DNA of 64,000 nucleotides from an uncultured Candidatus Saccharibacteria bacterium (GTDB lineage: Bacteria > Patescibacteriota > Minisyncoccia > Phycocordibacterales > Phycocordibacteraceae). This document shows positions 400-56,947 of this stretch, one piece after another. Each line of letters begins with the position of its first letter. Position 1 is the stretch's first letter. Location of the stretch: assembly GCA_964638585.1 (NCBI GenBank), contig CAZXAN010000002.1, positions 73,291 through 137,290 on the forward strand, in the 5' to 3' direction. The notes under the pieces are model-generated. The model worked only from the letters and a program-made list of their open reading frames with translations. It searched no databases and was not told the DNA's origin. The position numbers were made by a program, and so were the translations under genes.

Positions 400-443
400 C
401 ACTGTACCTTAATTCGTCCTATAGGCTATACTAAGGTACAGTG
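400..443. promoter_or_regulatory. 44-bp perfect palindrome, CACTGTACCTTA-N20-TAAGGTACAGTG, with a CCTATAGG core in the loop. It sits immediately upstream of the PaaX-like gene and overlaps the GTG at 441. Candidate operator.
   Basis: Seen directly: 12-bp arms are exact reverse complements, and the central CCTATAGG is itself palindromic. A second imperfect copy lies at 1036-1075. Confidence 0.5.
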
Positions 444-1019
444 AAAAGAGAACAAAAAAGTCGAGTGAAGATGAAGAATCTGCTTCTCAGATCAATTGCT
501 GTTACAGGAGTAATAAGTGTCGCGCTTATTGCACCGAAGATTACACGATTGTTGAAAGAGCTTGACCGTCCAGCAAAAAACCGTGCGCGACTTTATCGGC
601 GTATTACGCAAGGACTTAATCGACTGGAACAGAATGGTTTTGTAACGGTGACTGGCAAATATGCGGAACGTCGAATTGAGATAACGAAAAAGGGAAGAGA
701 GGTGATGGAGCAGATTGAGTTTGGAGAGTATGTCATTCCCGAGCCAGCTTTCTGGGATGGGAAGTGGAGAGTATTGATTTTTGATATAAGAGAAAAAAGG
801 CGACGCATTCGTACCCAGCTCCGACGGCTTCTCCATGGTGCTGGATTTGTTCGTGTTCAAGATAGCGTGTGGGTATATCCGTATCCATGCGACGAATTCG
901 TCTCTCTTGTGAGGGCGCATCTTAGAAGTGGTGTCGGTGAAATGAGAGTTTTTGTAGCCGAAGCATTGGAGTCGGACAAGGACCTTCGAGAACATTTCAA
1001 ACTATTTTCTTTACCATAA
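441..1019 (+). CDS. PaaX-family winged-HTH transcriptional regulator. The real start is probably the ATG at 471 (MKNLLL...).
   Basis: N-terminal wHTH-like segment (RARLYRRITQGLNRLEQNGFVT). The C-terminal stretch WDGKWRVLIFDIREKRRRIRTQLRRLLHGAGFVRVQDSVWVYP matches the PaaX C-terminal domain pattern. Confidence 0.55.
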   Translation: MKREQKSRVKMKNLLLRSIAVTGVISVALIAPKITRLLKELDRPAKNRARLYRRITQGLNRLEQNGFVTVTGKYAERRIEITKKGREVMEQIEFGEYVIPEPAFWDGKWRVLIFDIREKRRRIRTQLRRLLHGAGFVRVQDSVWVYPYPCDEFVSLVRAHLRSGVGEMRVFVAEALESDKDLREHFKLFSLP

Positions 1020-1035
1020 TCTGTCTACGACACCG

Positions 1036-1075
1036 TGTACCTTAATAGAGCCTATAGGACGCAGTAAGGTTAAGT
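1036..1075. promoter_or_regulatory. Second, imperfect copy of the GTACCTTAAT...CCTATAGG...TAAGGT palindrome, between the PaaX-like gene and rplI
   Basis: GTGTACCTTAATAGAGCCTATAGGACGCAGTAAGGTTAAG. It shares the arms GTACCTTA/TAAGGT and the CCTATAGG core with the element at 400-443. Confidence 0.4.
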
Positions 1076-4739: not shown

Positions 4740-5702
4740 TTATGTTTTTAAATCACTACCGCCATGGAATTTTTCATGTATGTCTCGGAGTCGTTTATTT
4801 GTCACGTGCGTATAGATTTGTGTAGTTGCAACATTTTTGTGACCTAGTAGCTCTTGCACGCTGCGCAAGTCCGCTCCATGCGATAATAGATCGGTCGCAT
4901 AAGTATGACGTAGGGTGTGCGGAGTAACTTTTTTAGATAGCCCAGCGAGTATTGCACAGCGCGAGATCATCTTTTGAATAGAGCGCGCAGTTAGCCTAGT
5001 AGCATCTTCATTTTTAGAACGAAAATTTATAAACAAGGGGTCGTACACATCGCGTCGAGCCTTTAGATATGTGCGAAGCCATTCAGCTGCACGTGGAGAA
5101 ATGAAGATTGTACGAATATGCTTGCCCTTACCTACAATTGAAAGTTCATAGGTTCGTGTGCGACTGTTGTCATCGAGAAAAGATACTTGATTCACATCGA
5201 GCGATACGAGTTCAGCTATACGCATACCGGATGAAAAGAATAGCTCCATAATAGCGCGATCACGCAAACCGGATGGTGTTAATATATTTGTAATTTTCAG
5301 CATTTTTTCGACGTCGCGTACTTCAAGAAATGCTAGTGTATGTTCTTCTTTCTGTTTGGCAAGTTTTACTTTGGAGGATGGAATTGTATCTATGTCGCGA
5401 TCTGCAAGATAGTTTAAAAATGCACGCAATGCTATTAGATAATAATTTTGAGATTTTTTACCAAGATATTCACCACGTAACGTTTTGTATTTTTGCGCCA
5501 AGTAGAGTCGATAATCCCATATATGTTTTGCTGTCAATTCATGTGGTAAAAGTTTTGGTTGTTCAGTTTTATTGAGCCAGCCGGAAAATAATTTTAAATA
5601 TTGTTCGTAATTGCGTTGAGTATTGTTAGATAGTCCTTTTTCAACCTCGCAGTATTCAAGGAAGGGGAGTATATGATCAGGAAGTGGTATTTTGCTCAGC
5701 AT
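4740..5702 (-). CDS. Tyrosine site-specific recombinase (XerC/XerD family)
   Basis: C-terminal catalytic motifs HTLRHTYATDLLSHGADLRSVQELLGHKNVATTQIYTHV (R..H..R..Y). N-terminal SAM-like domain. Confidence 0.8.
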   Translation of the reverse strand: MLSKIPLPDHILPFLEYCEVEKGLSNNTQRNYEQYLKLFSGWLNKTEQPKLLPHELTAKHIWDYRLYLAQKYKTLRGEYLGKKSQNYYLIALRAFLNYLADRDIDTIPSSKVKLAKQKEEHTLAFLEVRDVEKMLKITNILTPSGLRDRAIMELFFSSGMRIAELVSLDVNQVSFLDDNSRTRTYELSIVGKGKHIRTIFISPRAAEWLRTYLKARRDVYDPLFINFRSKNEDATRLTARSIQKMISRCAILAGLSKKVTPHTLRHTYATDLLSHGADLRSVQELLGHKNVATTQIYTHVTNKRLRDIHEKFHGGSDLKT

Positions 5703-6004: not shown

Positions 6005-6643
6005 ATGACGAGAAAAGAGATTGCACTCAAGCATTTTAAGAGAGTTGACCCTCTATTCCACAAGGCCACATTACAACACCACACTTCCCTGCCAATGCAA
6101 CTAGAAGAAAAGAAGACTCACGCTTCGCTTTTTGTTGCACTTGTATCAATCGTTATCTCTCAACAGCTTGGGACTACCGTGGCAGACGTGATCTTTGCCA
6201 GAGTAAAGAAGGCGTGCAGGGACAGACTCTCTCCAGACGCTGTTTTGGGAGCCTCTCTTGCAAAGCTTCGTTCTGCAGGGCTATCTGGTTCTAAAATAAA
6301 AACTCTTCATGCGATTGCTACAGCAATAAAAAATGGCGAGCTAGATTTGCTCGCATTAAAAAAGATTGATGAAGAAGATGCTGGGAAAAGACTTATGCAG
6401 ATATGGGGACTTGGGCCATGGTCGGTAGAGATGTTTATGATGTTTGCGCTTGGCAGGAGCGACGTATTTTCTGCCGGCGACCTTGGCTTAGTTCGTGCAA
6501 TGGAGTCAATTTATGATTTGCCAAAAAATTCTCCGCGATCTTCCCTGCTTGTTATCGCAAATAAATGGTCTCCACATCGCACATACGCATCGCTTCTTCT
6601 CTGGGCAACTCGCGACTCTAAGGGACAGAATTTTACAAATTAG
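6005..6643 (+). CDS. alkA: DNA-3-methyladenine glycosylase II (AlkA-like) of the HhH-GPD superfamily
   Basis: GLGPWSVEMFMMFALGRSDVFSAGDLGL is an HhH-GPD motif with the catalytic Asp. Confidence 0.7.
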   Translation: MTRKEIALKHFKRVDPLFHKATLQHHTSLPMQLEEKKTHASLFVALVSIVISQQLGTTVADVIFARVKKACRDRLSPDAVLGASLAKLRSAGLSGSKIKTLHAIATAIKNGELDLLALKKIDEEDAGKRLMQIWGLGPWSVEMFMMFALGRSDVFSAGDLGLVRAMESIYDLPKNSPRSSLLVIANKWSPHRTYASLLLWATRDSKGQNFTN

Positions 6644-7977
6644 AGATACGACAATGGGTTGAGGTATGCGTCGAGGGCTGCCACAGGCATCGTTGCGTCG
6701 GCACAACCGATTTTAGAACCGCGGAATTGGCGTAGGGTCATAATCTGCATGCCTTCAGTCGCATAAACGCCAAAGTGGATATGAGGTCCAGTAGCCATAC
6801 CTGTCATACCAGATAGACCGATCACCTGCCCTGTACTGACTGTCTGACCTTTTGACACGTCAATTGACGAGAGATGTGAATACACGGTACTCAAACCGTT
6901 GCTGTGCACGACGAGTATCCATTTGCCAAACGAGTAGCACCCTTTTATCAGGTCTGTGTTGCCTGTGCCTAGTACAGTACCGCCAAGGGACGCTTGAACA
7001 GGTGTGCCGATAGGCGCTGCGATATCTATGGCATTGTGACCCTTCCCGTGATAGATTTGCGGATTTTCTGTCGCAAATTTGGTGTTGCCAAAGTATTGTG
7101 TGATACAAAATTGATTGCCTAAGCGACTCTTCAATCTCGCACATCCAAGCATAAATTTACTACTAAACGGCCATGACAAGACTCCAGAGCCGACCTTAGG
7201 CAAAAGTCCTGGGTGCACGATTAAGTTCAACTGTCCTTGCAGGTTTATAAGCTCTTGCTCAAATGCCTTACCTGCTGCTTGTTTTTGTGCGATAAGACTT
7301 TGATAATTTGATTCTTTATTTTTAGTTTGCGTTAATAGTTGTTGCTGTACAGACTTGCTTGCATCTACTGAATGCTTCTGGCTTGCCAAGTCTTTTTTGA
7401 GAGAAACCAAGTTTGCTTTTTCGGCTGACACTTGGTCTCTGTTTGTTGTGAGTGCAGTGCGGACCTCTCTAAGATCGTTTATACGTGCGAGCAGTGACTG
7501 GTTAAATTGAATAGTCTCTTCTGTGGCCTGCCACACTTCACGCAGTGAATCAGTAAAAACTAGCTTGAGAACAAGAGAAGACTCTTCATCTTCGGCAACG
7601 CTTCTAAGAGCCTTCCCTATCGTCTCCTGATTTGTTTTTATAGATGTTTCTTTATCACCAATAGATTGTGTAAGACTCTGAATCTTGAGATTTGCAGAAG
7701 AAATTTTATTTTGAGTAACTTGAATCTGAGCTGCAAGCTGTTTTTGGTTGAGGGTTAGGGTATTGATTGTGGACTGCAGAGTATTCTTCTGTGTCCCTAT
7801 AACGTCAAGTTCTTTTTGGAACGAAGCTATCTCTGCCTGTAGCTCTGCCAGTTTCTTATTGTTTGCATCAATCTGTGCCTGTATGTCTGCCACCGATTGC
7901 GCATGAGTAACCGGCGCGTACGAAATGATTAAAAGTATAGGTACTAAAAAATAGAGAATGTACGCGCGATTCATCAC
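6640..7977 (-). CDS. M23 family peptidoglycan endopeptidase with an N-terminal signal peptide and a long coiled-coil (EnvC/NlpD-like)
   Basis: The C-terminus carries GHNAIDIAAP...HIHFGVY, the M23 HxxxD / HxH motifs. Heptad-rich Q/L/K stretch. Confidence 0.8.
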   Translation of the reverse strand: MMNRAYILYFLVPILLIISYAPVTHAQSVADIQAQIDANNKKLAELQAEIASFQKELDVIGTQKNTLQSTINTLTLNQKQLAAQIQVTQNKISSANLKIQSLTQSIGDKETSIKTNQETIGKALRSVAEDEESSLVLKLVFTDSLREVWQATEETIQFNQSLLARINDLREVRTALTTNRDQVSAEKANLVSLKKDLASQKHSVDASKSVQQQLLTQTKNKESNYQSLIAQKQAAGKAFEQELINLQGQLNLIVHPGLLPKVGSGVLSWPFSSKFMLGCARLKSRLGNQFCITQYFGNTKFATENPQIYHGKGHNAIDIAAPIGTPVQASLGGTVLGTGNTDLIKGCYSFGKWILVVHSNGLSTVYSHLSSIDVSKGQTVSTGQVIGLSGMTGMATGPHIHFGVYATEGMQIMTLRQFRGSKIGCADATMPVAALDAYLNPLSYL

Positions 7978-9314
7978 TCAAGTATAGCAATAGCCTTACG
8001 TATGCGCGAAGTAGATTCTGCCGGTCCTAATATTGAGATAAGAGTAAATGGGTCCGGTGAGCGTTCTTGGCCGGACAAAGCGTAACGCAGTGGCCACAAA
8101 ACGGCTCCCCTGCCCCCCTTTCCTTTTGCCTCTTCAGAGTCGGCAAGTGGCATAATGGCCTCTTTTGCCTGTGCCGCAGAAACGTCTTCTAGTAGGGCGT
8201 TTACGAGCTCTAAAAGTGCCTCAAGAGCTGATTTGGCTATGCCTGGACGGTCAGAAAGCTCTTTTTTAAGCAATAATTCACGCTCGATTTTTGGTGCAGT
8301 AAATAGACATGAAAGCTCGCCCGCGAGCAATTCCCGAGCCTCACCAAACGTCTGCGCACGCTCTTTCAATAGAGGCACAACTTTCGCAATGATGTCGGGA
8401 CGTACGACGTCCCGACCTGCATTCAGATTCATGAGAAAGTCGTCGTCAGATAGTTTGCGCATCCAGTATTGGTTGACTGAAAATAGTTTAACCTCGTCAA
8501 ATATCGCACTCCCCTTCTGCACGCGCGAAATATCAAATGCTTCAACTAATTCTTCGTGCGACAGATATTCGCGGTCGTCACCCGGGTTCCATCCGAGGAA
8601 GGCGAGGTAATTCAACATTGCTTCTGGCAATATTCCCTCATCGCGGTATTCAATAAGCGGTTTAGCACCGTTACGAGTTGAGAGCTTTGAACGGTCTGTA
8701 CCAAGAAGCAGTGGCAAATGAGTATAGCTTGGTTGTGAATAGCCGAGCGCTTGCTGGATAAGAATGTGCCGCGGTGTATTTGAAATATGATCGGCACCAC
8801 GAATGATGTGAGTAATATCAGCATCGCCGTCATCAACTACGACCGCGAGGTGGTAGAGAGGGTCATCTATAGCCCGCGCGATGACAAAGTCTCCATGCTC
8901 TGTTGTATCAAAGGTAATATCACCGCGAATCTCGTCATGGAATGTGATGGTCGTATTCGGATTTCGCAGGCGCACCACGTCAACTGTTTGAGACGGGTCA
9001 TCTTTTTTTGGTTCATGCGACACATAGGCCTTGTCCTCAGCTACAAGCTTTTTGAGTAATTCTTTGTGTCTGTCAATACGATCGCTTGAACGTACCGTAG
9101 GCTGATCAGGAATTACGCCAAGCCAATTTAAGGTATCAAAAATAACTTCTTCAGAACCCTCTTTTTCGCGAGCTTGGTCGGTGTCTTCAATACGAACTAA
9201 GAATAGACCGTTGTGTTTTTTTGCGAACAAATAGCAGAAAACGGCAGTACGATAATTACCGGCGTGTTTCAAGCCAGTTGGCGATGGAGCGAAGCGAGTA
9301 ACAACTTTTGTCAT
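7974..9314 (-). CDS. gltX: Glutamate--tRNA ligase
   Basis: RFAPSPTGLKHAGN... is the class I HIGH region. Length and organisation match GluRS. Confidence 0.85.
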   Translation of the reverse strand: MTKVVTRFAPSPTGLKHAGNYRTAVFCYLFAKKHNGLFLVRIEDTDQAREKEGSEEVIFDTLNWLGVIPDQPTVRSSDRIDRHKELLKKLVAEDKAYVSHEPKKDDPSQTVDVVRLRNPNTTITFHDEIRGDITFDTTEHGDFVIARAIDDPLYHLAVVVDDGDADITHIIRGADHISNTPRHILIQQALGYSQPSYTHLPLLLGTDRSKLSTRNGAKPLIEYRDEGILPEAMLNYLAFLGWNPGDDREYLSHEELVEAFDISRVQKGSAIFDEVKLFSVNQYWMRKLSDDDFLMNLNAGRDVVRPDIIAKVVPLLKERAQTFGEARELLAGELSCLFTAPKIERELLLKKELSDRPGIAKSALEALLELVNALLEDVSAAQAKEAIMPLADSEEAKGKGGRGAVLWPLRYALSGQERSPDPFTLISILGPAESTSRIRKAIAILE

Positions 9315-10450
9315 GATTCGTGAGGCAGAGCGATAGAGAGAACCTCTTTCGCCAATATGCGAGCAGAGTCTGGGTCGGTAAAGCCAGCTGCAGAATCTCC
9401 CATGCGTTTTGCGAGCGCTGGGTCACCTATGATCCTGCGGACTTCTGATACAAACAGATTTGGCGAGAGATTGTCTTCTTCGAGAACGACTGCGGCACCA
9501 GTCTTGGCATATGCATATGCGTTAGAGCGCTGGTCGTGACTCACTGATTCAGGAATTGGGATGATAATCGCTGGTTTCTTCCATAGACCGATCTCAGCAA
9601 TCGCGCTTGCTCCGGCACGTGAGACAACCACGTCCATCACGCCAGCCGCTCTCTGCATAGACACTTGGTCCATATAGCCTATCGGGTGATATCTAGCCGC
9701 GTATGGATTCTTTTCTAGTTCAACCTGTGCAACCGCAGATACGTTCTTAAAGTTTGCTTGGCCGGTCTGATGGATTATGTTACCGATAGAAACAAGTTCT
9801 GGAAGGCATGAAAGCACCGTTTCGTTTATCTTCACTGCGCCCTGAGAACCGCCGAGAATAAGAACAGTCGGGACGTCGGGTTCAAGCCCCAGATATTGTT
9901 GTGCTCCTTCTGTCTCAACGCGCATAAGAGCCTTCCTGATCGGGATACCAGTCCTGGCGATTTTGTCCTGTGCTTTCTTTGGAAAGTACTGTGCAGAATC
10001 TTCAAAAGAGATTGCGATTCTTTTTGCGAATTTGGATGCATATAGATTTGCGCGCCCCGGCTTAGCGTCTGACTCATGAATAATTATAGGTATGCGAAGC
10101 AGGTGTGCAGCAGTTACAGTCGGTACACTCCCGTAACCGCCTTTGCTCACTATAACGTCTGGGTAGATACGATAGAGCGTTAAGATTGCTCGGATTAGTC
10201 CTGCAAATGAAACGAACAAGTCAGTAAAATTTCGTATAGAGAAATAACGACGCGACTTTCCTGCTGGCACGTGTATATAGGTAATGCCGTTTTCAAACAG
10301 AGCCTTTTCGTCAAAGATGTTCGGCGCGAGATAGTATAGCTTTGGCGCTATAAGACGCTCTTCACGGACGATGTCAGAGAGAGCCTCGGCGATAGCAATA
10401 ATTGGATAGAAATGCCCTCCTGTCCCTCCCCCAGTAAACGCGATTTTCAT
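9311..10450 (-). CDS. murG: MurG, the undecaprenyl-PP-MurNAc-pentapeptide UDP-GlcNAc transferase
   Basis: N-terminal GGGTGGHFYP, GT-B fold length, and dcw context. Confidence 0.85.
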   Translation of the reverse strand: MKIAFTGGGTGGHFYPIIAIAEALSDIVREERLIAPKLYYLAPNIFDEKALFENGITYIHVPAGKSRRYFSIRNFTDLFVSFAGLIRAILTLYRIYPDVIVSKGGYGSVPTVTAAHLLRIPIIIHESDAKPGRANLYASKFAKRIAISFEDSAQYFPKKAQDKIARTGIPIRKALMRVETEGAQQYLGLEPDVPTVLILGGSQGAVKINETVLSCLPELVSIGNIIHQTGQANFKNVSAVAQVELEKNPYAARYHPIGYMDQVSMQRAAGVMDVVVSRAGASAIAEIGLWKKPAIIIPIPESVSHDQRSNAYAYAKTGAAVVLEEDNLSPNLFVSEVRRIIGDPALAKRMGDSAAGFTDPDSARILAKEVLSIALPHES

Positions 10451-10542
10451 AATACGTAAAGTATACCCTACCCTTCTTCATATAAAAACAAAACCGCCGC
10501 GTGTCATACCGCGGCGGCGTAGGTACAGAAACCCCACCTTTT

Positions 10543-11487
10543 TCACTCAGTCCGATAGAGTTCTCGTCGGATCATGCCACTGAGTGCAGCTAGACCGCAA
10601 AGAAGTGTTGTCTGCTGATGATGTCCGTCGACATTGTGACAGTGCAATTCTATTGGTCCCGAGGCTTCGCGTAGACTTCCATCCACGTATAGACCACACG
10701 CATTCCCAGGAACATCAAGAATGAGCTGTCCATTGTTACGAATGTCAGCACGATAACTGTAGTCATCGAATCGCTGGTAACTCGGAAACATCCGCTCGTA
10801 GACTCTTTTTAGAGCGCCCTTCACCGTCGGCAATTCCTTATTTGAGTGCGAGCGTAGGTAGTCACAAAGAGTCCTTGAGAGTGTGGCACCGATAAACGCT
10901 CGACCTCTCTCAAAATTCGTTCGCACAGTTAGGAGTTGTTGGGGCGTGTTAGTGATTCCGGCAAGCCACTTCTTATCAGGCATTTCCAGGATCTGGAAAA
11001 GGAGGCTGAATGTCGCAGCAATGCAGTCAAGAGAATCCCAGTCGTGCATAGTTTCTCTGCCTGTTTTACTGCAATGAAAACACTCCCAGTCATCGTCGGT
11101 TATGCCGCTACCTTCGCAGTTTTCGCACTCGCCGGCATCTTTTTCGATTTGAGGAATGACGACGGCGTACTCACGAAGACCGTTACTTTTTGTTCGCCGG
11201 TACGGGTTGAGTATTCCACTGAAACCCCATGGCTTATCAACATCAAGGTGAAAGTTAGTCGTGACGTCATATTCCTTCAGACGTTCTTGATAACCGGCAA
11301 GCCAGGTCAGCTTGGGTAGTACATCGAGGATGTGACGAAATGGTTCTTCAGCAAAACCAATGACCAATAGTGGTACTGGCGGAAGATCTAGAGGTAGCTC
11401 GGCCGGATCGACTCCGTACATCAGGTCTAGAGTAAACCACTCTGGGTAATCGTTAAGGCCGAGATGAACATAATCAAATTGTCGCAT
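10543..11487 (-). CDS. Hypothetical cysteine-rich cytoplasmic protein of 314 aa, inserted between ftsW and murG
   Basis: No family recognised. Cys cluster CENCEGSG...WECFHCSKTG plus further Cys/His (LHCHNVDGHH). No TM. Confidence 0.5.
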   Translation of the reverse strand: MRQFDYVHLGLNDYPEWFTLDLMYGVDPAELPLDLPPVPLLVIGFAEEPFRHILDVLPKLTWLAGYQERLKEYDVTTNFHLDVDKPWGFSGILNPYRRTKSNGLREYAVVIPQIEKDAGECENCEGSGITDDDWECFHCSKTGRETMHDWDSLDCIAATFSLLFQILEMPDKKWLAGITNTPQQLLTVRTNFERGRAFIGATLSRTLCDYLRSHSNKELPTVKGALKRVYERMFPSYQRFDDYSYRADIRNNGQLILDVPGNACGLYVDGSLREASGPIELHCHNVDGHHQQTTLLCGLAALSGMIRRELYRTE

Positions 11488-11645
11488 GACGTAACCTCCG
11501 TTTAGGGTTGAACATCTTTCTGAGTAGAAAGTTATACCGCCACTACATATAAGTCAAATTTTCAGCACTATTCAAAATACATGACGGTCGTCCACTATAT
11601 TGGATACCCGATTTTTTCGTTTGTATTCAAACGAGTAAAAATCGC

Positions 11646-11669
11646 GTCGGAAATGAGCACATTTCCGAC
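11646..11669. terminator. Perfect hairpin GTCGGAAATG-AGCA-CATTTCCGAC, 4 nt after the ftsW stop, with a T-run on the minus strand; terminator of ftsW
   Basis: 10-bp perfect stem. On the minus strand it is followed by GATTTTTAC. It shares GTCGGAAAT arms with the hairpin at 39882-39917. Confidence 0.55.
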
Positions 11670-11673
11670 GTAA

Positions 11674-12771
11674 TCAAGATTTTTTATGGGCGGCGACGTT
11701 GAGGATTAGACCGCACATTATGAGTACAGCCATAAGCGCCGTACCACCGTGAGATATAAACGGCAACGGTAAACCAGTAAGTGGGATTATGTTAAGCATC
11801 GCGCCTATATTTACAAACGCTTGGAAAATTATTATGAACGAGAATCCGAGTGCGACAAGTGCGCCAAAGAGGTCACGCGAATTCCCTGCTATGACGATAC
11901 CTCGCGAGGCAAGCCCCATAAATAACGCGAGCAGTATTACAGCCCCCACAAATCCAGTTTCTTCTGCAAAAACTGCGAATATTGAGTCGCCCTCTGGTTC
12001 TGGCAGATAATTAAACTTTCCTACGCTTTGACCAAAACCTCTACCCAAGAGACCTCCAGAGCCTATAGCTATAAGTGATTGTTGTATTTGATACCCGCTT
12101 GTTAGAGAGTTAGCTGATGGATTTATAAATGTTTTTACACGTTCAAGAACGTACGGGCGTGCGACCACGACCAGCCCAAACACTACAATCGCGCAGATGG
12201 CTAAGATACCAAAGTCTCTCATTGATGCTCCAACTACGAAGTACATTACTGCTCCTGTAGCGACAATCAGAAGTGCTGTTGATGTGTTTGGTTGTGCTAG
12301 AAGAATGATCACGGGGATCGCCACTATAGCGACAAAAGGCATAATCCCTTTCTTCGGATTCGCCAGTTCTCGTGCCCGAGGAGCAAGCCACCATGCCATC
12401 ATCAATACAAATCCTATCTTTAAGAATTCGGCTGGTTGTACAGTGGCAAAACCTAGGCTAATCCAGCGAGTCGCCCCGCCAGAACTTAAGCCTATACCGG
12501 GAACAAATACTAGTGCAGTAAAGATGAGTGTCACTACATAAATATAAGGTGCAGAAACTTTAATCCAATTGAGCGGGAACATTCTTGCTAGAATAAGTGC
12601 GACGAATCCGAGTCCTATCCCAAGCCCTGATTGAAATAAGATATCGCGTGAGAGCGAGCCGCTCTCTCGTGCCAAGAGACCTAGAGAGGCAGAAGAGAAT
12701 ATTGCTAGACCAATAAAAACGATTACGAGCACGAGCATGAAGAAGACTCGGTCGCCAGATACAAACTTCAT
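11674..12771 (-). CDS. ftsW: SEDS-family peptidoglycan glycosyltransferase FtsW/RodA
   Basis: Ten-TM topology and conserved SEDS segments (...NPSANSLTSGYQIQQSLIAIGSGGLLG...). Confidence 0.85.
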   Translation of the reverse strand: MKFVSGDRVFFMLVLVIVFIGLAIFSSASLGLLARESGSLSRDILFQSGLGIGLGFVALILARMFPLNWIKVSAPYIYVVTLIFTALVFVPGIGLSSGGATRWISLGFATVQPAEFLKIGFVLMMAWWLAPRARELANPKKGIMPFVAIVAIPVIILLAQPNTSTALLIVATGAVMYFVVGASMRDFGILAICAIVVFGLVVVARPYVLERVKTFINPSANSLTSGYQIQQSLIAIGSGGLLGRGFGQSVGKFNYLPEPEGDSIFAVFAEETGFVGAVILLALFMGLASRGIVIAGNSRDLFGALVALGFSFIIIFQAFVNIGAMLNIIPLTGLPLPFISHGGTALMAVLIMCGLILNVAAHKKS

Positions 12772-12773
12772 AA

Positions 12774-13850
12774 TTATTTAAGAAGAGCTACCGTCATACC
12801 AATGATTGCGCACACAATTGAGATTATCCAGTAGCGCATCGTGACCTTGTATGAAGGCCACCCTATCGCTTCAAAATGATGATGTAAGGGAGCAATGCGA
12901 AAAACTTTTTTACCTCTAAATTTTTTTGAAGCAACTTGAATGATATTAGAAGCCACTGTAACGACGAGTGGAAACGCAATTATGGGTAGTGCCGCCACAC
13001 CATATCCCTCGCCCGGTGTGTCTGTCATAAATGCGATAACAGCTAGAGTCAGAGTCAGGCCCATTGTCCCTGTCTCGGTCATCCAGAATCGAGCGGGCGG
13101 GATATTGAACCAGAGAAATGCAAGTATCGCACCAGTAAGAGTAGCGCAGAAAGCCGCGAGATTTATCTGATTTTGGAAATATGCAATGCCAGCATAAGCC
13201 ATAAATGCTGTACTGAAGATACCTCCAGCTAACCCATCAATCCCATCTATCACTCCTCCTGCGTATAAGCATATTGATACTAATATAAAAAGAGGAACTA
13301 TTAATGCGCCGAGATATAGTGTGCCGTCTCCTGGGATACCTACGGCGACCATTCCTAGCTTTACATAGAACCACCAACCTATAATACTTGAGATAAGAGT
13401 CACAAATAGAAGACGTGTGCGTAAAATTATCCCCCTCTCGCCAGACGGATGTATATCAAGAAGGTCGTTTACAAGTCCGACTATGGCGCCGGTGATTAGT
13501 GCAAAGAGAGGTACCCAAGTCTGGCTACGGCTTAAGAAATCTAGTTTCTCTGCCAGTGGTATCGGCACGAGCCGTGCGAATATCCAGAGACCAAGTGTGA
13601 CGAGGAGAACAGTAACCCAGATTAGAATACCTCCCATTCGTGGAGTTGAAGTCTCGGTACCTGTATGCATGGTCATGCGAAGTTTCTCAAATTCAACTGC
13701 CGGCGTCCCGTCTATTGCTACCTTGCTGACCGTTTTTTTCCACACGCGATGTTTATATAGGTAATGAGTTAGAAGCGGAGCAAGTAATATGCCTATGACA
13801 AATGCTGCTGTCGCTGGTATAAAAACTTTAATTATATCGATAGTTAACAT
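12774..13850 (-). CDS. mraY: Phospho-N-acetylmuramoyl-pentapeptide transferase
   Basis: Hallmark APLHHHFE motif and polytopic membrane topology. Confidence 0.9.
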   Translation of the reverse strand: MLTIDIIKVFIPATAAFVIGILLAPLLTHYLYKHRVWKKTVSKVAIDGTPAVEFEKLRMTMHTGTETSTPRMGGILIWVTVLLVTLGLWIFARLVPIPLAEKLDFLSRSQTWVPLFALITGAIVGLVNDLLDIHPSGERGIILRTRLLFVTLISSIIGWWFYVKLGMVAVGIPGDGTLYLGALIVPLFILVSICLYAGGVIDGIDGLAGGIFSTAFMAYAGIAYFQNQINLAAFCATLTGAILAFLWFNIPPARFWMTETGTMGLTLTLAVIAFMTDTPGEGYGVAALPIIAFPLVVTVASNIIQVASKKFRGKKVFRIAPLHHHFEAIGWPSYKVTMRYWIISIVCAIIGMTVALLK

Positions 13851-23031: not shown

Positions 23032-24135
23032 CTAGAGCCCTTCTGCTTTCAGCTCTTCAACAGTTTTGCGGGCTTTTCCCGAGAGTTTGTGAGGGAGGGC
23101 GACTTCCAAGTGGATGATGAGGTCGCCCCGAGAGCCGTCAACGGGGATGCCCTTGCCGGCGACGCGCAGTAATTCTTCTGCACGCTTCATCGGCGGGATT
23201 TTTACTTCCAACATTTTCCCTTCTAGCGTCTCTATCGGCACTATAGTCCCCAAAAGAGCGTCAGTGAGTTTAACAGGTAGCGTCATGATGAGATTCGCGC
23301 CGTCGCGGCGGAATGTCGCGTGTGGCTTCACGTGCACTTTGACATATAAATCTCCGGCGGTGCCGGTCTTGATTGCCTCACCCTGTTGAGTCATTCGTAT
23401 CATCTCGCCGTGGTCTATGCCGGCGGGGATATTTATCTTTATTTCTTCTTCGCGACGCTTCACGCCGTGACCCTTACACTCTGGACACTTTTCTTTCGGG
23501 ATCTTTCCGGCGCCGTCGCAGACGTTGCAGACGCGAACAGAAGTAAACTGCCCTAGAATAGAGTTGCGTGTCTCGTGAATCTTACCGCTACCATTGCAGA
23601 TCGTGCATTTGTCCAGCTCTGTGCCAACCTTCGCGCCATTGCCGCGGCAGAGTGTGCAGGTAGATACTTTTGCTATCAATACATTTCTGCTGGTGCCAAA
23701 GACGGCGTCTTTAAAAGAAACTTCAAGATCTATAGAGATATCGCGTCCGCGCGGCGCCTGCTGTCGGCCGCCGCGACCAGAGAATATGTCGCCAAAGATA
23801 TCACCAAAGTCGAATTCAGCGCCGCCCTGTCCACCGAAGCCTTGCTGGAACTGTGAGAAATCAAAGCCGCCAAACGGATTCCCTGCTCCCCCTCCGCCTG
23901 CCGATGGGCCACGCCCTCCGGCAAACGCCTGGCCGTATGTATCATATTCTCTACGTTTCTTGTCATCACTTAAAACAGAATAGGCCTCGGTAATCTCCTT
24001 AAACTTAGCCTCGTCAGTACCTCCCTTGTCGGGGTGATATTTGTGCGCGAGCTTACGGAACGCTTTTTTAATATCGTCCGCCGTCGCCCTCTTATCTACT
24101 CCCAGCACGTTGTAATAATCCTTAGTTGTTGCCAT
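23032..24135 (-). CDS. dnaJ: Chaperone DnaJ
   Basis: J-domain with HPD (KYHPDKG), a G/F-rich region, and four CxxCxGxG zinc-finger repeats. Confidence 0.9.
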
Positions 24136-24190
24136 TTTTTCTTATTATACTCTCACTTCTTTTTGTATGCAAAACAAAGCGGCGGATGCC

Positions 24191-24502
24191 TTAGAATCCG
24201 ATTCCTAAATTATGCAGCGTGGGTAAGCCGAGAGCAAATAGATAAAAAATTAGTAAAATAAAAAATTCTATTCTATCTAGTTGATGCATGGCGCTTTTTT
24301 CACGAGCGTATCGCATTGCCAGGATTATAAAATACACGAGGAAAAATACATGACCTGCCAATATAGGCAGAGCCAAAAAAAGAAATGCGCCCCCTTCACC
24401 AGGACCGAGTGTTGATGACAGAAGGGTGAGCCCACCAATAAAGACCAAATAAATCATCGTCAGGACTAAAATAGCTTTCTTTTTTCCAGTAGTATCCGTC
24501 AT
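24191..24502 (-). CDS. Small membrane protein, hypothetical (103 aa, three TM), immediately upstream of dnaJ
   Basis: Hydrophobic. Co-oriented 55 bp upstream of dnaJ. Confidence 0.4.
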   Translation of the reverse strand: MTDTTGKKKAILVLTMIYLVFIGGLTLLSSTLGPGEGGAFLFLALPILAGHVFFLVYFIILAMRYAREKSAMHQLDRIEFFILLIFYLFALGLPTLHNLGIGF

Positions 24503-24705
24503 TATTTAGCAGTATATAGCATACAAACTCCTTCAACAAACTATGTGGGAGGCAAATGTACTTATAAGAGAATCAGGAGATGTTTGAAATGACGCCAGAG
24601 CTTCTGGTGTTGTGCGAGCGATAGCGAGACCGCGGAGCATGAGAAGGCCTTCTTCGTGGGCTTCAGATTGAAAATGTTCCTGCATTTGTAAATCTTGTCT
24701 AAAAA

Positions 24706-24750
24706 CGAATGTTCGTTATTTCTCACGGTCGTGTGAGATAACGAACATTT
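24706..24750. promoter_or_regulatory. Inverted repeat AATGTTCGTTATTTCTCAC-GGTCGT-GTGAGATAACGAACATT. CACGGTCGTG recurs 58 bp downstream and CACGGTT once between. Candidate operator for the downstream (minus-strand) membrane-protein/dnaJ unit.
   Basis: About 18-bp arms with a single 2-nt bulge. Decamer CACGGTCGTG at about 24724 and 24790. Confidence 0.4.
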
Positions 24751-24842
24751 GGTTTGCAAAACAAAAGTATCACGGTTATCCGCTATAACCCACGGTCGTG
24801 GCATATTGCGGATATGTGACACTATTACAGACAAAACAAAAC

Positions 24843-24862
24843 GGCGCGAGGTTCCCCGCGCC
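24843..24862 (-). terminator. Hairpin GGCGCG-AGGTTCCC-CGCGCC followed on the minus strand by TTTTGTTTTG. It terminates the dnaK/small-membrane-protein transcript.
   Basis: GC stem plus T-run on the minus strand. Confidence 0.4.
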
Positions 24863-24868
24863 ATTTGG

Positions 24869-25132
24869 CTATCTTGAATGCACTGCAGGTCGAGGGCTGA
24901 CGATAATCATGAATATCAGCCCGAAAAAATATGCGACCAGACCGAGGAAGAATTGCCAGTTGCCACCGGATATGGCTCCGAGTGTTACCGACGCAAGAGC
25001 TACCATAGGGAAACACATACCGGTTGTCCATTTCCCGGGACTCACTGTGTCCTCATACACTGCAAGTATTCCGATTGCAAAGCACGCCACGCTCCACACG
25101 AAAAAACTCATTTCAAGCACAGTCATGTTCAT
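24869..25132 (-). CDS. Small membrane protein (87 aa), hypothetical, directly downstream of dnaK
   Basis: Two to three TM helices. Followed by a terminator. Confidence 0.35.
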   Translation of the reverse strand: MNMTVLEMSFFVWSVACFAIGILAVYEDTVSPGKWTTGMCFPMVALASVTLGAISGGNWQFFLGLVAYFFGLIFMIIVSPRPAVHSR

Positions 25133-25181
25133 TCTCCTGATTATGATCCAGGGTATTTATAACATGGGGTGTAAGAATTTG

Positions 25182-27747: not shown

Positions 27748-28008
27748 TTATATGCTGGTCCCAAATAGCATCAAGAAAATCCCAAGAATCAACTCCGTAA
27801 ACATCTTATTCCGATGATGTTTCCTGTTCTTCTTGACCCACTCGTTAGAGCCCTTCCAGCTGCGACGGTATACCAATGCGTCAAGCCTCTTCTGTTCCTC
27901 AAATGAAAGCATTGGAGCACTCCCAGTAATGGACGGTATGTCCTCTCGGAGTATATAACTATTATCAATGCACAACTGACTATCCACAGTACTAGACGAC
28001 CGTCGCAT
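27748..28008 (-). CDS. Hypothetical small protein with a C-terminal TM helix
   Basis: ORF only. Confidence 0.2.
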   Translation of the reverse strand: MRRSSSTVDSQLCIDNSYILREDIPSITGSAPMLSFEEQKRLDALVYRRSWKGSNEWVKKNRKHHRNKMFTELILGIFLMLFGTSI

Positions 28009-28088
28009 ATTTTGAATAGTGGCATTTATGGTACAGAAAAGCCTCGTACAGAGTGAAGCCGAGGCTTTTCTGCACGAGACTTTTATAA

Positions 28089-29720: not shown

Positions 29721-29748
29721 GTGTTTCCTAGTGTCTAGAGCCTAACGC

Positions 29749-30120
29749 CTAGTCATTTACTATTAAATTCTTCATACGAGGCTTCCTAAGCTTGTTGCGC
29801 GGGATCATGCCGTCAACAGTCTTTATTACCACCTCCGCGATTCCCTTCTTAGTTATCATTTCGTCCATAGTCATGGTGTAGAAACCTCCTGGGTAGCCAG
29901 TGTAGCGAGTATAGACCTTGCCCGCGGTGCGACGCTTGGGCAGGTGCATCTTGCTCGCGTTGTTAACAGTGACAGTGACAGGTAAGGCCTGATTCTTAGC
30001 GAAGTGTACAGAACGCTTACCTAGTAGCGCACTTGCCGCCTCGCTACAGACGCGACCTAGTGTACGATCGGTCGCATCTATAACGTGAGTTGTTGGAGCT
30101 GGCTTAGTGTTGAGAGTCAT
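29749..30120 (-). CDS. rplM: 50S ribosomal protein L13
   Basis: Conserved L13 core (...HLPKRRTAGKVYTRYTGYPGG...). Upstream of rpsI. Confidence 0.9.
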   Translation of the reverse strand: MTLNTKPAPTTHVIDATDRTLGRVCSEAASALLGKRSVHFAKNQALPVTVTVNNASKMHLPKRRTAGKVYTRYTGYPGGFYTMTMDEMITKKGIAEVVIKTVDGMIPRNKLRKPRMKNLIVND

Positions 30121-31445: not shown

Positions 31446-31507
31446 AACGCAATCGTAATTACCAGTTAATAAGGTTTAAATATTTAAACATTTAAAAATA
31501 TAAATGT

Positions 31508-32575: not shown

Positions 32576-32956
32576 TTATGTCTTTTCTAGCGTACGACGG
32601 CCCGATGTCATCGTCTTACGGACGTTGCCACGGCGTGTGCGTGAATTGGTCTTTGTCCTCTGTCCGCGAACAGGCAGACCACGAGAATGTTTATCGCCTC
32701 GTATTGACTTAATATCTTTGAGACGCTTGATGTTCTGACCGATCTCTCGGCGAAGTTCGCCCTCTATCGTGTACGCCTCGGCGAGAGAACGTATCTTCTG
32801 CTCTTCTTCACTCGTAACCTCACTGCCCTTTTTTGTAAATGGCACGCCGACTTGTGTCAGAATGTCGCGTGCACGCGTTGGTCCAATACCAAAAATCAGC
32901 GGTAGTGAATACGCTAGTTGTTTGTTATCTGGGATTGTGACGCCGGCGATACGCAT
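32576..32956 (-). CDS. rpsM: 30S ribosomal protein S13
   Basis: MRIAGVTIP...KRLKDIKSIRG. Confidence 0.9.
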   Translation of the reverse strand: MRIAGVTIPDNKQLAYSLPLIFGIGPTRARDILTQVGVPFTKKGSEVTSEEEQKIRSLAEAYTIEGELRREIGQNIKRLKDIKSIRGDKHSRGLPVRGQRTKTNSRTRRGNVRKTMTSGRRTLEKT

Positions 32957-32986
32957 ATTTATATTTTTAAATATTTAAATTTCTTT

Positions 32987-40717: not shown

Positions 40718-41146
40718 TTACTTCCACGCCACTCTGAATCCGAGATGTGTGGCGGACTCTTTGTACCGAATTGCGAAAGCGTTGCGGATGGCCTTTCTGC
40801 GCATCGTGGCTTTCCTCTCTGGTCTATTGACCAGAAAATGAAGAGCCGTACACCCGACGACCGAGCTGATAATCAGGGCAAGTAAAATCCTGGGAATAGG
40901 CGTTTCGAGTCCCGACAAATCGAAAAATCCAAACGCCGCCAGTGCCGCGCAGAACGATATGAAGGTACCCAGCTCGGTATTTCTAGCCCAAAAACTCTGG
41001 GAAAGATGCGCTCTGTTGAATATTTCCCATGCGGTGCGGGCCGTATCAAGCCGCTCTTTTGCGACCGCTGTTTTTGCCGTAGCGACAATTTTTTCTGCTT
41101 CTGTTTCGGGCGCTACCTGTTGGCAATTAGGGCAGATTTCTATCAT
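40718..41146 (-). CDS. Hypothetical protein with an N-terminal CPNCQ zinc-ribbon-like motif and two C-terminal TM helices
   Basis: ORF with mixed features. No family assigned. Confidence 0.35.
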   Translation of the reverse strand: MIEICPNCQQVAPETEAEKIVATAKTAVAKERLDTARTAWEIFNRAHLSQSFWARNTELGTFISFCAALAAFGFFDLSGLETPIPRILLALIISSVVGCTALHFLVNRPERKATMRRKAIRNAFAIRYKESATHLGFRVAWK

Positions 41147-42133: not shown

Positions 42134-43399
42134 ATGGGAAAGACCCTGAAAATTATTAAAAAGTTCGTACCAAAAAAGCTGTTCTTGGCTCTACAGCCCA
42201 TGTATCATTATTTATTAGCCGTTGCTGGATCTCTATGGTACAGATTCCCCTCTCACAAACTCCGTATCGTCGGTGTTACTGGTACAAACGGTAAGACAAC
42301 AACGGCTACCTTGCTATACAAGATCGCGACAAAGCTTGGATATAAAGTGGGACTTGTTTCTACTGTAGAAAATATCATTGCAGGAGAGGTTAAACCTACT
42401 ACGCATACTACTCCTGATCCTATTTCTCTAAACAAACTTTTTAAAGAAATGGTTGATACAGGGTGCGAATATGTTTTTATGGAAGTGTCCTCTCATGCAC
42501 TGGATCAAAATCGTGTGTTAGGGGTAAATTTTGTTGGTGGGATTTTTACCAATTTAACCCATGACCATTTGGACTACCATAAAACTTTTGAAAATTACTT
42601 TGAAGCCAAAAAGAAGTTTTTTAAAATGCTTCCAGCTGGGGCTTTTGCACTTTCCAATACTGATAATGAGTATGGAAATAAAATGCTTCAAGGGATAAAA
42701 GCCAAGAATTTTTCTTACGGGTTTAACGGTAATGAAAATTTTCATGGAGAAATAAAACAAACAAAATTTGATGGTCTAGATCTAGTTTTTAACGGAGAAG
42801 ATATTAACTCAAAACTATTAGGTAGATTCAATGCCTATAACTTACTAGCGGTTTGGAGTGCAAGCAATTTGCTCGGTTTTGACATGAAAAAAGTCAGTAC
42901 GATTCTAAAAGACATAGAACCACCACTTGGTAGATTCCAACATTTTACTTCTACAAATGGGGTCCTAGTTATTGTGGATTATGCTCATACTCCTGATGCC
43001 TTAGAAAATGTATTAAAAACTGTTAGAACATTTGTTAGTTCAAGAGTTATTTCTGTTTTTGGTTGTGGTGGCGACCGTGACCCGATGAAACGCAAAGTAA
43101 TGGGTCATATTGGAGTTATGCTTTCTGATATCGCGATTTTTACCTCGGATAATCCAAGGAGTGAAGATCCAGAAAAAATTATTGAACAGATGAAGACTGA
43201 TTTGTCAGACGAAGACTTAAAAAAAGTAAAAACGATTCCAAATCGTCACGAAGCAATTTTAGAAGCAGTCAAATTAGCGCAGAAGGGGGACGTAGTACTT
43301 TGCGCTGGCAAAGGACATGAAGATTATCAAGAAATTAAAGGTGTTAAACATCATTTTAATGATATGGAGGAATTTAAAAAAGCCCTTAGCATTACCTAG
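42134..43399 (+). CDS. murE: UDP-N-acetylmuramoyl-L-alanyl-D-glutamate--2,6-diaminopimelate ligase
   Basis: Mur ligase P-loop GVTGTNGKTTT, MEVSSHAL, and a DYAHTPDALENVL C-terminal domain. Confidence 0.85.
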   Translation: MGKTLKIIKKFVPKKLFLALQPMYHYLLAVAGSLWYRFPSHKLRIVGVTGTNGKTTTATLLYKIATKLGYKVGLVSTVENIIAGEVKPTTHTTPDPISLNKLFKEMVDTGCEYVFMEVSSHALDQNRVLGVNFVGGIFTNLTHDHLDYHKTFENYFEAKKKFFKMLPAGAFALSNTDNEYGNKMLQGIKAKNFSYGFNGNENFHGEIKQTKFDGLDLVFNGEDINSKLLGRFNAYNLLAVWSASNLLGFDMKKVSTILKDIEPPLGRFQHFTSTNGVLVIVDYAHTPDALENVLKTVRTFVSSRVISVFGCGGDRDPMKRKVMGHIGVMLSDIAIFTSDNPRSEDPEKIIEQMKTDLSDEDLKKVKTIPNRHEAILEAVKLAQKGDVVLCAGKGHEDYQEIKGVKHHFNDMEEFKKALSIT

Positions 43400-55487: not shown

Positions 55488-55492
55488 AACTA

Positions 55493-56943
<1,451 letters not shown>

Positions 56944-56947
56944 TTAG

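What the first reader, a model, noticed from the sequence alone, without database searches (positions are those of the whole stretch)
10451..11673. Cysteine-rich unknown gene inserted into the dcw cluster between ftsW and murG, with its own terminator-bounded transcription unit
The otherwise canonical mraY-ftsW-murG order is interrupted by a 314-aa soluble protein with no recognisable family. It has clustered Cys/His (CENCEGSG...WECFHCSKTG; LHCHNVDGHH) suggestive of a zinc or Fe-S site.

A perfect intrinsic terminator sits 4 nt after the ftsW stop, and a 156-bp promoter-like spacer lies between that terminator and the start of the unknown gene. So the gene is separately transcribed rather than an operon member.

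Conserved position inside the division/cell-wall cluster hints at a division- or PG-related accessory function specific to this lineage.
Basis: partly seen in the sequence, partly recalled or inferred. Interest (0 to 1): 0.6.

Follow-up and report, generated by a model that had tools for sequence, protein, structure and literature searches.

The report
Orphan zinc-finger gene parked between ftsW and murG
The gene between ftsW and murG is real and separately transcribed, but it is a self-contained accessory gene from a large, unnamed family of candidate-phyla-radiation bacteria carrying a DnaJ-type zinc finger, and its place in the cell-wall cluster is incidental, not a clue to a division function.

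Summary
Window 10543..11487 (-) is an intact 314-aa ORF between ftsW and murG, with strong intrinsic terminators on both sides and its own conserved promoter.

The interpretation does not hold.
- The same cassette, promoter included, lies between dnaK and dnaJ in other Kaiserbacteria, and between recR and a DEAD helicase in another.
- The two closest relatives by MurG (87% and 84% identity) have an empty ftsW-murG junction.
- One genome has a DD-carboxypeptidase in that slot.
- Remote homologues (~30% identity) sit in more than 20 unrelated neighbourhoods.

The protein belongs to a large family: 1114 clusters at 50% identity in the exhaustive search. The members that carry an organism name come mostly from Parcubacteria lineages, and every name seen was 'hypothetical protein'. 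No Pfam or NCBIfam model covers it. The AlphaFold model is confident (pLDDT 88.7, pTM 0.90) but has no significant match in PDB or BFVD.

The only recognisable part is a DnaJ-type (CXXCXGXG)2 zinc knuckle inserted between two strands; some members carry all four repeats. The proteins are acidic. I found no transposon, phage or plasmid hallmarks.

My best guess is a zinc-finger-mediated protein-binding (holdase or assembly) factor. This is inferred, not shown. Interest is modest.

The parts
10543..11487 (-). ORF 'X', 314 aa. Member of an uncharacterised, apparently Parcubacteria-wide family. DnaJ-type zinc knuckle at C121/C124/C136/C139. Conserved C-terminal motifs PGNAC264GL and C283-H-N-V-D287..Q291-Q292.
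   Evidence: family and invariant residues. (AF2 pLDDT 88.7, pTM 0.90). (zinc-finger type).
11495..11499 (-). Shine-Dalgarno GGAGG, 7 nt upstream of the ATG.
   Evidence: sequence. Conserved in all 12 aligned upstream regions.
11529..11557 (-). Promoter of X: -35 TTGACT (11557-11552), 17-nt spacer, -10 TAACTT (11534-11529).
   Evidence: TTGAC and TA..T are invariant in 12 loci from the ftsW-murG, dnaK-dnaJ and recR contexts. The generic consensus scan did not call it.
11636..11670 (-). Intrinsic terminator of ftsW: 11-bp perfect stem, 4-nt loop, then a T-run.
   Evidence: (-17.2 kcal/mol, z -6.1).
10483..10518 (-). Intrinsic terminator of X: 9-bp G+C-rich stem, 8-nt loop, then TTTTGTTTTT.
   Evidence: (-20.2 kcal/mol, z -3.65). 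An equivalent hairpin plus T-run follows X in all other contexts.
10451..10482 (-). murG's own promoter block (TATATGAAGAAGGGTAGGGTATACTTTACGTATT; -10 TATACT at 10465-10460). It is present whether or not X occupies the junction.
   Evidence: The same block precedes murG in L009 (X present) and in L066 (junction empty).
11569..11606 (.). 38-bp dyad element TATCCA-N26-TGGATA with core GACGACCGTC, ending 11 nt upstream of the X -35 hexamer. One of four copies in the window. Role unknown; possibly an operator.
   Evidence: It is not a stable RNA hairpin.

Best explanation
**What it is (shown).** X is a real, intact, monocistronic gene. It is an autonomous cassette made of a sigma-70-type promoter, a Shine-Dalgarno site, the ORF and an intrinsic terminator. 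The cassette sits at a pre-existing transcription-unit boundary, between the ftsW terminator and murG's own promoter.

It encodes a member of a large, unnamed protein family of about 290-320 aa whose named members are mostly Parcubacteria (candidate phyla radiation). The protein is acidic and soluble. It is predicted to form one compact alpha/beta globule with no detectable solved relative. A DnaJ-type (CXXCXGXG)2 zinc knuckle is inserted between two beta-strands, and a second conserved patch (CPGxACGL ... CHNVDxxxQQ) lies near the C-terminal helix.

**Where it sits (shown).** The location in the cell-wall cluster is incidental. In other Kaiserbacteria the same cassette occupies the dnaK|dnaJ or recR|helicase boundary. 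The ftsW|murG slot is empty in the closest relatives.

**How it most likely works (inferred).** Every characterised protein with this finger type that I can recall uses it to grip other proteins: DnaJ, anti-TRAP, plant BSD2 and LQY1. This is from my own knowledge. I therefore propose that X is a zinc-finger-mediated protein-binding factor, that is, a holdase, assembly factor or co-chaperone-like protein. I do not think it is a division or peptidoglycan enzyme.
For: **Gene, terminators, promoter:**

**Family size and spread**
- 32 close homologues.
- 1114 representative clusters at E <= 1e-3 and 611 at E <= 1e-10.
- Homologues of about 30% identity in MAGs labelled Nomura-, Wolfe- and Jorgensenbacteria (three labelled 'Saccharibacteria').
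- All named members seen are 'hypothetical protein'.

**Fold:** AF2 pLDDT 88.7, pTM 0.90. No Foldseek match with E <= 1e-3 in PDB or BFVD.

**Zinc finger**
- Four Cys are invariant in 53 diverse members.
- 41 of 53 members hit PF00684, 33 hit TIGR02349 DnaJ and 15 hit anti-TRAP, all at E <= 0.1.
- The family profile hits the DnaJ zinc-finger structures 2ctt (1.7e-4), 1exk (4.7e-4), 1nlt and anti-TRAP 3lcz, over the finger only.
- Some members carry all four CXXC repeats, as in DnaJ.

**Charge:** pI 5.25 for X; family median 5.65.

**Positions**
- dnaK-X-dnaJ.
- recR-X-helicase.
- ftsW-X-murG.
- Empty or differently filled ftsW-murG slots.
- Diverse neighbours of remote homologues.

**Loose link to chaperone loci.** About 5 of roughly 27 independent contexts have Hsp70 or Hsp60 genes within 5 kb: the dnaK-dnaJ clade, L016 (groESL), L038 (grpE, dnaK), L020 (dnaJ, dnaK) and L055 (dnaK).
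Against: - The functional step has no direct support. There are no expression data, no interaction data and no structural neighbour.
- The chaperone proximity is no stronger than proximity to rplJ/rplL (4 contexts) or to dcw genes (3-4 contexts). It may only reflect how dense housekeeping genes are in tiny genomes.
- Similarity to DnaJ stops at the finger. Against the genome's own DnaJ only 15 columns align. There is no J domain, no G/F region and no DnaJ C-terminal domain.
- X itself gives no Pfam hit even at E <= 1.
- The conserved Cys/His/Asp patch (C264, C283, H284, D287) could be a catalytic or second metal site. That would point to an enzyme instead.
Confidence: 0.5

Rival explanations
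1. This is the first reader's reading: a lineage-specific division or peptidoglycan accessory factor. X would act with FtsW and MurG, for example in lipid II synthesis or flipping, or at the septum, and would be kept in the dcw cluster for that reason.
For: - The ftsW-X-murG order recurs in several Kaiserbacteria whose X proteins are only 49-68% identical.
- Two remote homologues lie 3-4 kb from mraZ-rsmH (L018, L062).
- In L013, L034 and L047 an N-terminally shortened X abuts ftsW with no spacer.
Against: - The closest relatives have an empty junction.
- Genomes with X at dnaK-dnaJ or at recR have no X at ftsW-murG.
- X is insulated by strong terminators and has its own promoter, which travels with it.
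- More than 20 remote contexts are unrelated to the cell wall.
- The protein is acidic and shows no membrane or PG-binding feature.
Confidence: 0.06
2. A selfish or mobile gene, such as a free-standing homing-endonuclease-like or transposase-like cassette. It would insert between conserved housekeeping genes and spread horizontally among Kaiserbacteria.
For: - There are at least three different intergenic positions within one candidate phylum. Each lies exactly at an operon boundary, and the promoter and terminator are carried along.
- Presence is patchy among close relatives.
- The X tree and the flanking-gene tree are not obviously congruent.
- A dispersed 38-bp dyad element lies next to the cassette in four genomes.
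- There are weak, non-significant Foldseek hits to the LAGLIDADG enzyme I-MsoI.
Against: - No terminal inverted or direct repeats flank the cassette.
- Only one copy was seen in every contig examined, up to 173 kb.
- There are no relatives in viral, phage or plasmid collections.
- No nuclease, transposase or integrase domain was found.
- The protein is acidic, which is unusual for a DNA-binding protein.
- Base composition matches the flanks.
- The I-MsoI hits have E about 0.06, probability 0.2 and TM-score 0.1-0.2.
- The NJ trees are star-like and cannot prove transfer.
Confidence: 0.1
3. An enzyme or redox protein. Its active site would be the conserved CPGxAC...CHNVD patch, acting as a Cys/His/Asp catalytic centre or a second metal site. 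The zinc finger could be structural only. Alternatively the finger cysteines could act in thiol-disulfide exchange, as reported for plant DnaJ-like zinc-finger proteins (from my own knowledge).
For: - H284 is nearly invariant.
- C264, C283, N285 and D287 are conserved in most of the 53 diverse members.
- Q184 and Q291 are nearly invariant.
- The window protein has 9 Cys and 10 His.
Against: - Very few polar residues are conserved family-wide.
- C264 and C283 are replaced in some members.
- No fold or sequence link to any enzyme family was found.
Confidence: 0.2

Closest known systems
DnaJ/Hsp40 cysteine-rich (zinc-finger-like) domain, Pfam PF00684 DnaJ_CXXCXGXG; structures 1exk, 2ctt, 1nlt
   Same: - Same CXXCXGXG repeat signature.
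- Like the DnaJ domain, the finger is inserted between beta-strands of a larger domain (the DnaJ part is from my own knowledge).
- The family profile hits these structures at E 1.7e-4 to 4e-3.
- Some family members carry four repeats, that is two Zn centres, exactly as DnaJ does.
   Different: - X has only two repeats, so presumably one Zn centre.
- It has no J domain, G/F region or DnaJ C-terminal domains.
- Similarity to the genome's own DnaJ covers only 15 columns.
- All Pfam matches fall below the 32.7-bit gathering score.
Stand-alone DnaJ-like zinc-finger proteins without a J domain: Bacillus anti-TRAP (RtpA, PDB 3lcz), plant BSD2, LQY1, CYO1 and PSA2
   Same: - They combine a DnaJ-type zinc knuckle with no J domain.
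- They act by binding or assembling other proteins (from my own knowledge).
- 15 of 53 family members hit the anti-TRAP NCBIfam model, and the family profile hits 3lcz at E 0.008.
   Different: - Those proteins are small (anti-TRAP is 53 aa) or have unrelated flanking parts.
- In X the finger is a roughly 25-residue insert in a 300-aa scaffold that has no detectable relative.
- No functional data exist for X.
Lineage-specific 'hypothetical' protein families enriched in CPR bacteria, as a general class known from comparative genomics of CPR genomes (from my own knowledge)
   Same: - The family is large, its named members are mostly CPR/Parcubacteria, it is unannotated and lacks a Pfam model.
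- It is found as a single copy per contig examined.
   Different: - I could not match it to any named family in the literature held here.

Membership tests
DnaJ/Hsp40 (J-domain protein, type I) | N-terminal J domain with an HPD motif (PF00226) | tested here: not met
   No PF00226 hit for X or for any of 53 family members. The genome's real DnaJ lies at 23032..24135.
DnaJ/Hsp40 (J-domain protein, type I) | Four CXXCXGXG repeats forming two Zn centres | tested here: not met
   X has two repeats, CENCEGSG and CFHCSKTG. A minority of family members have four.
DnaJ/Hsp40 (J-domain protein, type I) | C-terminal client-binding domains (PF01556 DnaJ_C) | tested here: not met
   No hit. hhalign against the genome's own DnaJ aligns only 15 columns of one repeat.
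DnaJ-type zinc-finger motif (PF00684-like module) | Paired CXXCXGXG repeats detectable by profile | tested here: inconclusive
   The motif is present by eye and all four Cys are invariant. 41 of 53 members match PF00684 at E <= 0.1 (best 1e-4; 5.4e-6), but all fall below the 32.7-bit cut-off and X itself gives no hit at E <= 1. The family profile hits the DnaJ finger structures at 1.7e-4 to 4.7e-4.
DnaJ-type zinc-finger motif (PF00684-like module) | Zinc actually bound by the four cysteines | not testable with these tools
   Needs metal analysis or a solved structure.
dcw (division and cell wall) cluster component | Conserved position in the cluster across related genomes | tested here: not met
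   The junction is empty in L064, L065 and L066, and holds a Peptidase_S11 gene in L067. X lies at dnaK-dnaJ or at recR in other Kaiserbacteria.
dcw (division and cell wall) cluster component | Co-transcription with neighbouring dcw genes | tested here: not met
   Strong terminators on both sides and an own conserved promoter, by sequence prediction only. No transcript data are available.
Insertion sequence or transposon | Terminal inverted repeats, target-site duplication, transposase domain | tested here: not met
   Only short chance repeats flank the cassette. No transposase or integrase family hit.
Free-standing homing endonuclease (LAGLIDADG, GIY-YIG, HNH) | Recognisable nuclease motif or fold | tested here: not met
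   No Pfam or PHROG hit. Foldseek hits to I-MsoI are not significant (E 0.06-0.26, TM-score 0.11-0.18). The protein is acidic, pI 5.25.
Rho-independent (intrinsic) terminator | G+C-rich hairpin followed at once by a U-run | tested here: met
   11670..11645 plus a T-run, and 10518..10493 plus a T-run. Free energies are -17.2 and -20.2 kcal/mol, and 0 of 200 shuffles fold as well.

The most novel reading that the evidence does not exclude
X would be the founding, structurally new member of a CPR-specific class of proteostasis factors: a DnaJ-type zinc-finger protein on a new scaffold that works with the Hsp70/Hsp60 machinery of these minimal cells.

In Kaiserbacteria it would also belong to a small set of accessory gene cassettes marked by a shared 38-bp dyad element (TATCCA-N26-TGGATA). 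That element would serve as a common operator or recombination site, which would explain how such cassettes come to sit at operon boundaries such as ftsW|murG and dnaK|dnaJ.
Probability: 0.12. Interest if true: 0.65.

Novelty: new variant of a known kind. Interest (0 to 1): 0.33.

Why it matters
If the working hypothesis is right, this is a widespread, unnamed, zinc-finger-bearing protein-binding factor peculiar to CPR bacteria. That would make it one more piece of the largely unknown 'private' proteome of these reduced, mostly uncultivated organisms.

The family is a reasonable target for structure determination:
- The predicted model is confident.
- The model has no solved relative.
- There are more than 1000 sequence clusters.

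The result also carries a warning for genome scans. In these small genomes, lying inside a famous cluster says little about function, because boundaries between independently transcribed housekeeping genes act as parking slots for accessory genes. By itself the finding does not open a long-standing question.

Tried and rejected
**Searches that found nothing for X**
- Whole-protein family searches: Pfam, PHROGs, NCBIfam and PADLOC gave only finger-sized or sub-threshold hits.
- PDB sequence searches with the single sequence and two profiles hit only DnaJ fingers.
- Foldseek against PDB and BFVD gave nothing significant.
- Rfam found no RNA family in or around the cassette.
- Viral, phage and plasmid searches found no relative.
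- Literature searches found nothing on this family.

**Ideas tested and dropped**
- Internal tandem duplication. The secondary-structure pattern (beta2-alpha2-beta4-alpha, twice) suggested it, but hhalign of the N-half against the C-half gave probability below 1%.
- TnpB- or Cas12f-like nuclease. I considered it because of the CxxC..CxxC motif and a D-containing C-terminal motif. I rejected it because the only hits are single-member ones at E 0.04-0.09 on the finger, the spacing is wrong and the protein is acidic.
- CIRCE/HrcA operator upstream of X or of the chaperone genes: no match in the window.
- A conserved 5'-UTR hairpin just after the promoter. A short inverted repeat is present in some loci but not others, and the fold is unremarkable (z -0.9).
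- The 38-bp dyad as a REP-like RNA hairpin: it does not fold better than shuffles.
- Transposon ends around the cassette: none.

**Technical failure**
- The metagenome scan with the diverse alignment A2 failed because no stretch was conserved enough. I repeated it with A1.

Full report
**1. The observation**

On the minus strand the window encodes mraY (12774..13850), ftsW (11674..12771), a 314-aa ORF here called X (10543..11487) and murG (9311..10450).

A perfect 11-bp hairpin with a T-run starts 3 nt after the ftsW stop codon. A G+C-rich hairpin with a T-run follows X. Both fold far better than shuffled sequence, at -17.2 kcal/mol (z -6.1) and -20.2 kcal/mol (z -3.65). GC content is the same as in the flanks. 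The description is therefore correct.

**2. X has its own promoter, and the promoter travels with it**

The generic consensus scan did not call a promoter in the spacer. Alignment of the region upstream of X from 12 loci tells a different story. It shows an invariant TTGAC, then 17 nt, then an invariant TA..T. A partly conserved leader and GGAGG follow. In the window this is TTGACT at 11557-11552 and TAACTT at 11534-11529.

The 12 loci come from three different genomic contexts. Promoter, ORF and terminator therefore form one autonomous unit.

murG keeps its own promoter block (…GGTAGGGTATACTTTACG-ATG) whether or not X is present. The ftsW|murG junction is thus a transcription-unit boundary in its own right.

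**3. The position is not conserved**

Close homologues of X number only 32 clusters at 90% identity, and the named ones are from Candidatus Kaiserbacteria. Their contexts fall into three groups:
- ftsW-X-murG: the window, L009-11 and L023 (68% identity), L028 and L029 (52%), L030, L012, and L013/L034/L047.
- dnaK-X-dnaJ: L001 and L019, L005/L006/L026, L007 and L008, L025, L027 and L031 (52-59% identity).
- recR-X-DEAD helicase: L003 and L004 (44% identity).

MurG homologues are far more numerous than X homologues, so I looked at four more ftsW-murG junctions:
- The two closest relatives by MurG identity, L064 (87%) and L065 (84%), have ftsW followed directly by murG, with spacers of 72 and 20 bp.
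- L066 lies on the same 173-kb contig that carries X between dnaK and dnaJ. Its junction is empty apart from a long hairpin and the murG promoter.
- L067 lies on the same contig that carries X next to recR. Its junction holds a 267-aa Peptidase_S11 gene.

In a MurG+FtsW neighbour-joining tree the window groups with the two genomes that have empty junctions. In the X tree the window's X groups with L009 and L024, next to the dnaK-type copies. Both trees are star-like. I conclude only that the distribution is patchy and that at least two relocations occurred, together with losses or a re-gain.

The window's own dnaK-dnaJ gap (about 1 kb) holds two small membrane ORFs instead of X. These boundaries behave as slots that take different accessory genes in different lineages.

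**4. The wider family**

An exhaustive profile search found 1114 representative clusters at E <= 1e-3 and 611 at E <= 1e-10. Almost all of the 150 listed hits are 280-330 aa long. The genome scan found homologues of about 30% identity in MAGs labelled Nomura-, Wolfe- and Jorgensenbacteria and other Patescibacteria; three MAGs were labelled 'Saccharibacteria'. Every source name seen is 'hypothetical protein'.

Across 53 diverse members the invariant positions are G88, C121, C124, C136, C139 and G253. Nearly invariant are P15, W17, F79, F89, P112, G126, G143, Q184, L185, P260, G261, H284, Q291, G298, L299 and A300.

Remote members have no stable neighbour. Adjacent genes include:
- an Mfd-like helicase and DprA
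- VIT1
- a PG-binding protein
- Mu Gam
- a DHH phosphoesterase
- EngB and a Fic protein
- ribosomal proteins S9, S21 and L7/L12
- TMEM175
- an aldehyde dehydrogenase and an alpha/beta-hydrolase
- a PD-(D/E)XK nuclease
- DegV
- IMPase and PGI
- PNPOx
- sigma-70
- signal peptidase

Hsp70 or Hsp60 genes lie within 5 kb in about 5 of roughly 27 independent contexts. However, rplJ/rplL (4 contexts) and dcw genes (3-4 contexts) are about as frequent. I treat the chaperone proximity as a hint, not as evidence.

**5. What the protein looks like**

The one recognisable module is the Cys cluster.
- 41 of 53 members match Pfam DnaJ_CXXCXGXG at E <= 0.1, all below the gathering score.
- 33 match the DnaJ model and 15 the anti-TRAP model of NCBIfam.
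- The family profile hits the zinc-finger domains of human DNAJA3 (2ctt, 1.7e-4), E. coli DnaJ (1exk, 4.7e-4), Ydj1 (1nlt) and anti-TRAP (3lcz), over profile positions of about 96-135 only.
- Some members (P0069, P0106, P0119) carry four CXXC repeats, the full two-centre arrangement of DnaJ.

Against the genome's own DnaJ, only one repeat aligns. No J domain or DnaJ C-terminal domain is present. X is therefore not a DnaJ.

The family is acidic: X has pI 5.25 and net charge -12.7, and the family median pI is 5.65. This argues against a nucleic-acid-binding role.

**6. Mobility hallmarks**

- No terminal inverted or direct repeats flank the cassette.
- Only one copy is present in the window.
- There are no relatives in IMG/VR, phage or plasmid collections.
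- No defence-system or transposase models match.

The cassette has moved during Kaiserbacteria evolution, but nothing indicates an active mobile element.

**7. Explanation and rivals**

*Shown:* X is a real gene and an autonomous transcription unit. It belongs to a large unnamed family whose named members are mostly Parcubacteria, carries a DnaJ-type zinc finger, sits in variable positions and is absent from this slot in the nearest relatives.

*Inferred:* the finger is a protein-gripping module. This rests on what is known of DnaJ, anti-TRAP and the plant DnaJ-like zinc-finger assembly factors (my own knowledge). Together with the acidic scaffold and the loose chaperone proximity, it makes a protein-binding holdase or assembly role the most likely one. 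I give the functional step about 30%.

*Rivals:*
- An enzyme or redox protein using the conserved C264/C283/H284/D287 patch: about 20%.
- A selfish mobile gene: about 10%.

**8. Novelty and score**

The kind of thing is known: a stand-alone protein with a DnaJ-type zinc finger, and an unannotated CPR-specific family. The scaffold is new as far as the available tools can tell, so I rate it 'new variant of a known kind'. Interest is modest (0.33). It rests on the size of the unnamed family and on the confident model that has no match.

Noticed in passing
window 11569-11606, 24777-24814, 27981-28018, 41245-41282; also L025:1085-1122, L028:5384-5421 and 5438-5475, L032:2240-2276: A dispersed 38-bp dyad element, TATCCA-N26-TGGATA, usually with a central CGGTCG/CGACCG core. 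All four window copies are intergenic. Three of them sit just after a terminator and just upstream of a small lineage-specific gene: X, a 55-aa ORF before grpE, and a 142-aa Zn-ribbon/TM ORF at 40718..41146. The fourth lies inside the dnaK-dnaJ gap. The strict pattern is expected 0.24 times per window by shuffling. The element does not fold as a stable RNA hairpin. It may be an operator or a recombination site.
   Followed up: partly
window 24136-25181 (dnaK-dnaJ gap): The roughly 1-kb gap between dnaK and dnaJ holds two small predicted membrane ORFs (24869..25132, 87 aa; 24191..24502, 103 aa). It also holds a 26-nt-arm palindrome at 24702-24755 with the same CACGACCGTG centre as the dyad element. 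Other Kaiserbacteria carry X, or a 125-151-aa ORF plus X, in this gap.
   Followed up: partly
L067:4201-5004 (ftsW-murG junction of the genome that carries X next to recR): A 267-aa Peptidase_S11 (DD-carboxypeptidase-like) gene occupies the same ftsW|murG slot that X occupies in the window. The slot therefore accepts different accessory genes.
   Followed up: partly
L013:4244-4996, L034, L047 (P0030, 252 aa, 46 member sequences): In one Kaiserbacteria lineage X lacks about 60 N-terminal residues and abuts or overlaps the end of ftsW, with no terminator or promoter between them. This could be a deletion derivative, a decaying copy, or a copy now read through from ftsW.
   Followed up: no
window 401-1075: A 192-aa ORF (441..1019, +) is flanked by 40-nt inverted repeats that are 85% complementary (401-440 and 1036-1075). 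By eye its C-terminal part looks Cas2- or PaaX-like (…WRVLIFDIREKRRRIRTQLRRLL…VQDSVWVYP). It sits between an S41 peptidase gene and rplI, which are adjacent in L003. It looks like another inserted cassette.
   Followed up: no
window 55490-55558, 56945-57052, 59503-59541, 60364-60433, 29724-29752; L064:4929-5000: A family of TAGGC/GCCTA-rich palindromic repeats lies in intergenic spacers. The same kind of repeat fills the 72-bp 'empty' ftsW-murG spacer of the closest relative, L064. They resemble REP-like terminator elements.
   Followed up: no
window 31475-31505 and 32955-32980: AT-rich inverted repeats of 24-25 nt, 88-96% complementary, lie 1.45 kb apart and bracket a stretch of small genes in the ribosomal-protein region.
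   Followed up: no
window 6640-13850: The 'dcw' segment is minimal and atypical. The order is Peptidase_S11, mraY, ftsW, [X], murG, gltX, M23 peptidase. There is no murD between mraY and ftsW. murG, gltX and the M23 gene overlap by 4 nt at each junction, suggesting one operon. A Mur ligase gene lies far away at 42134..43399.
   Followed up: no
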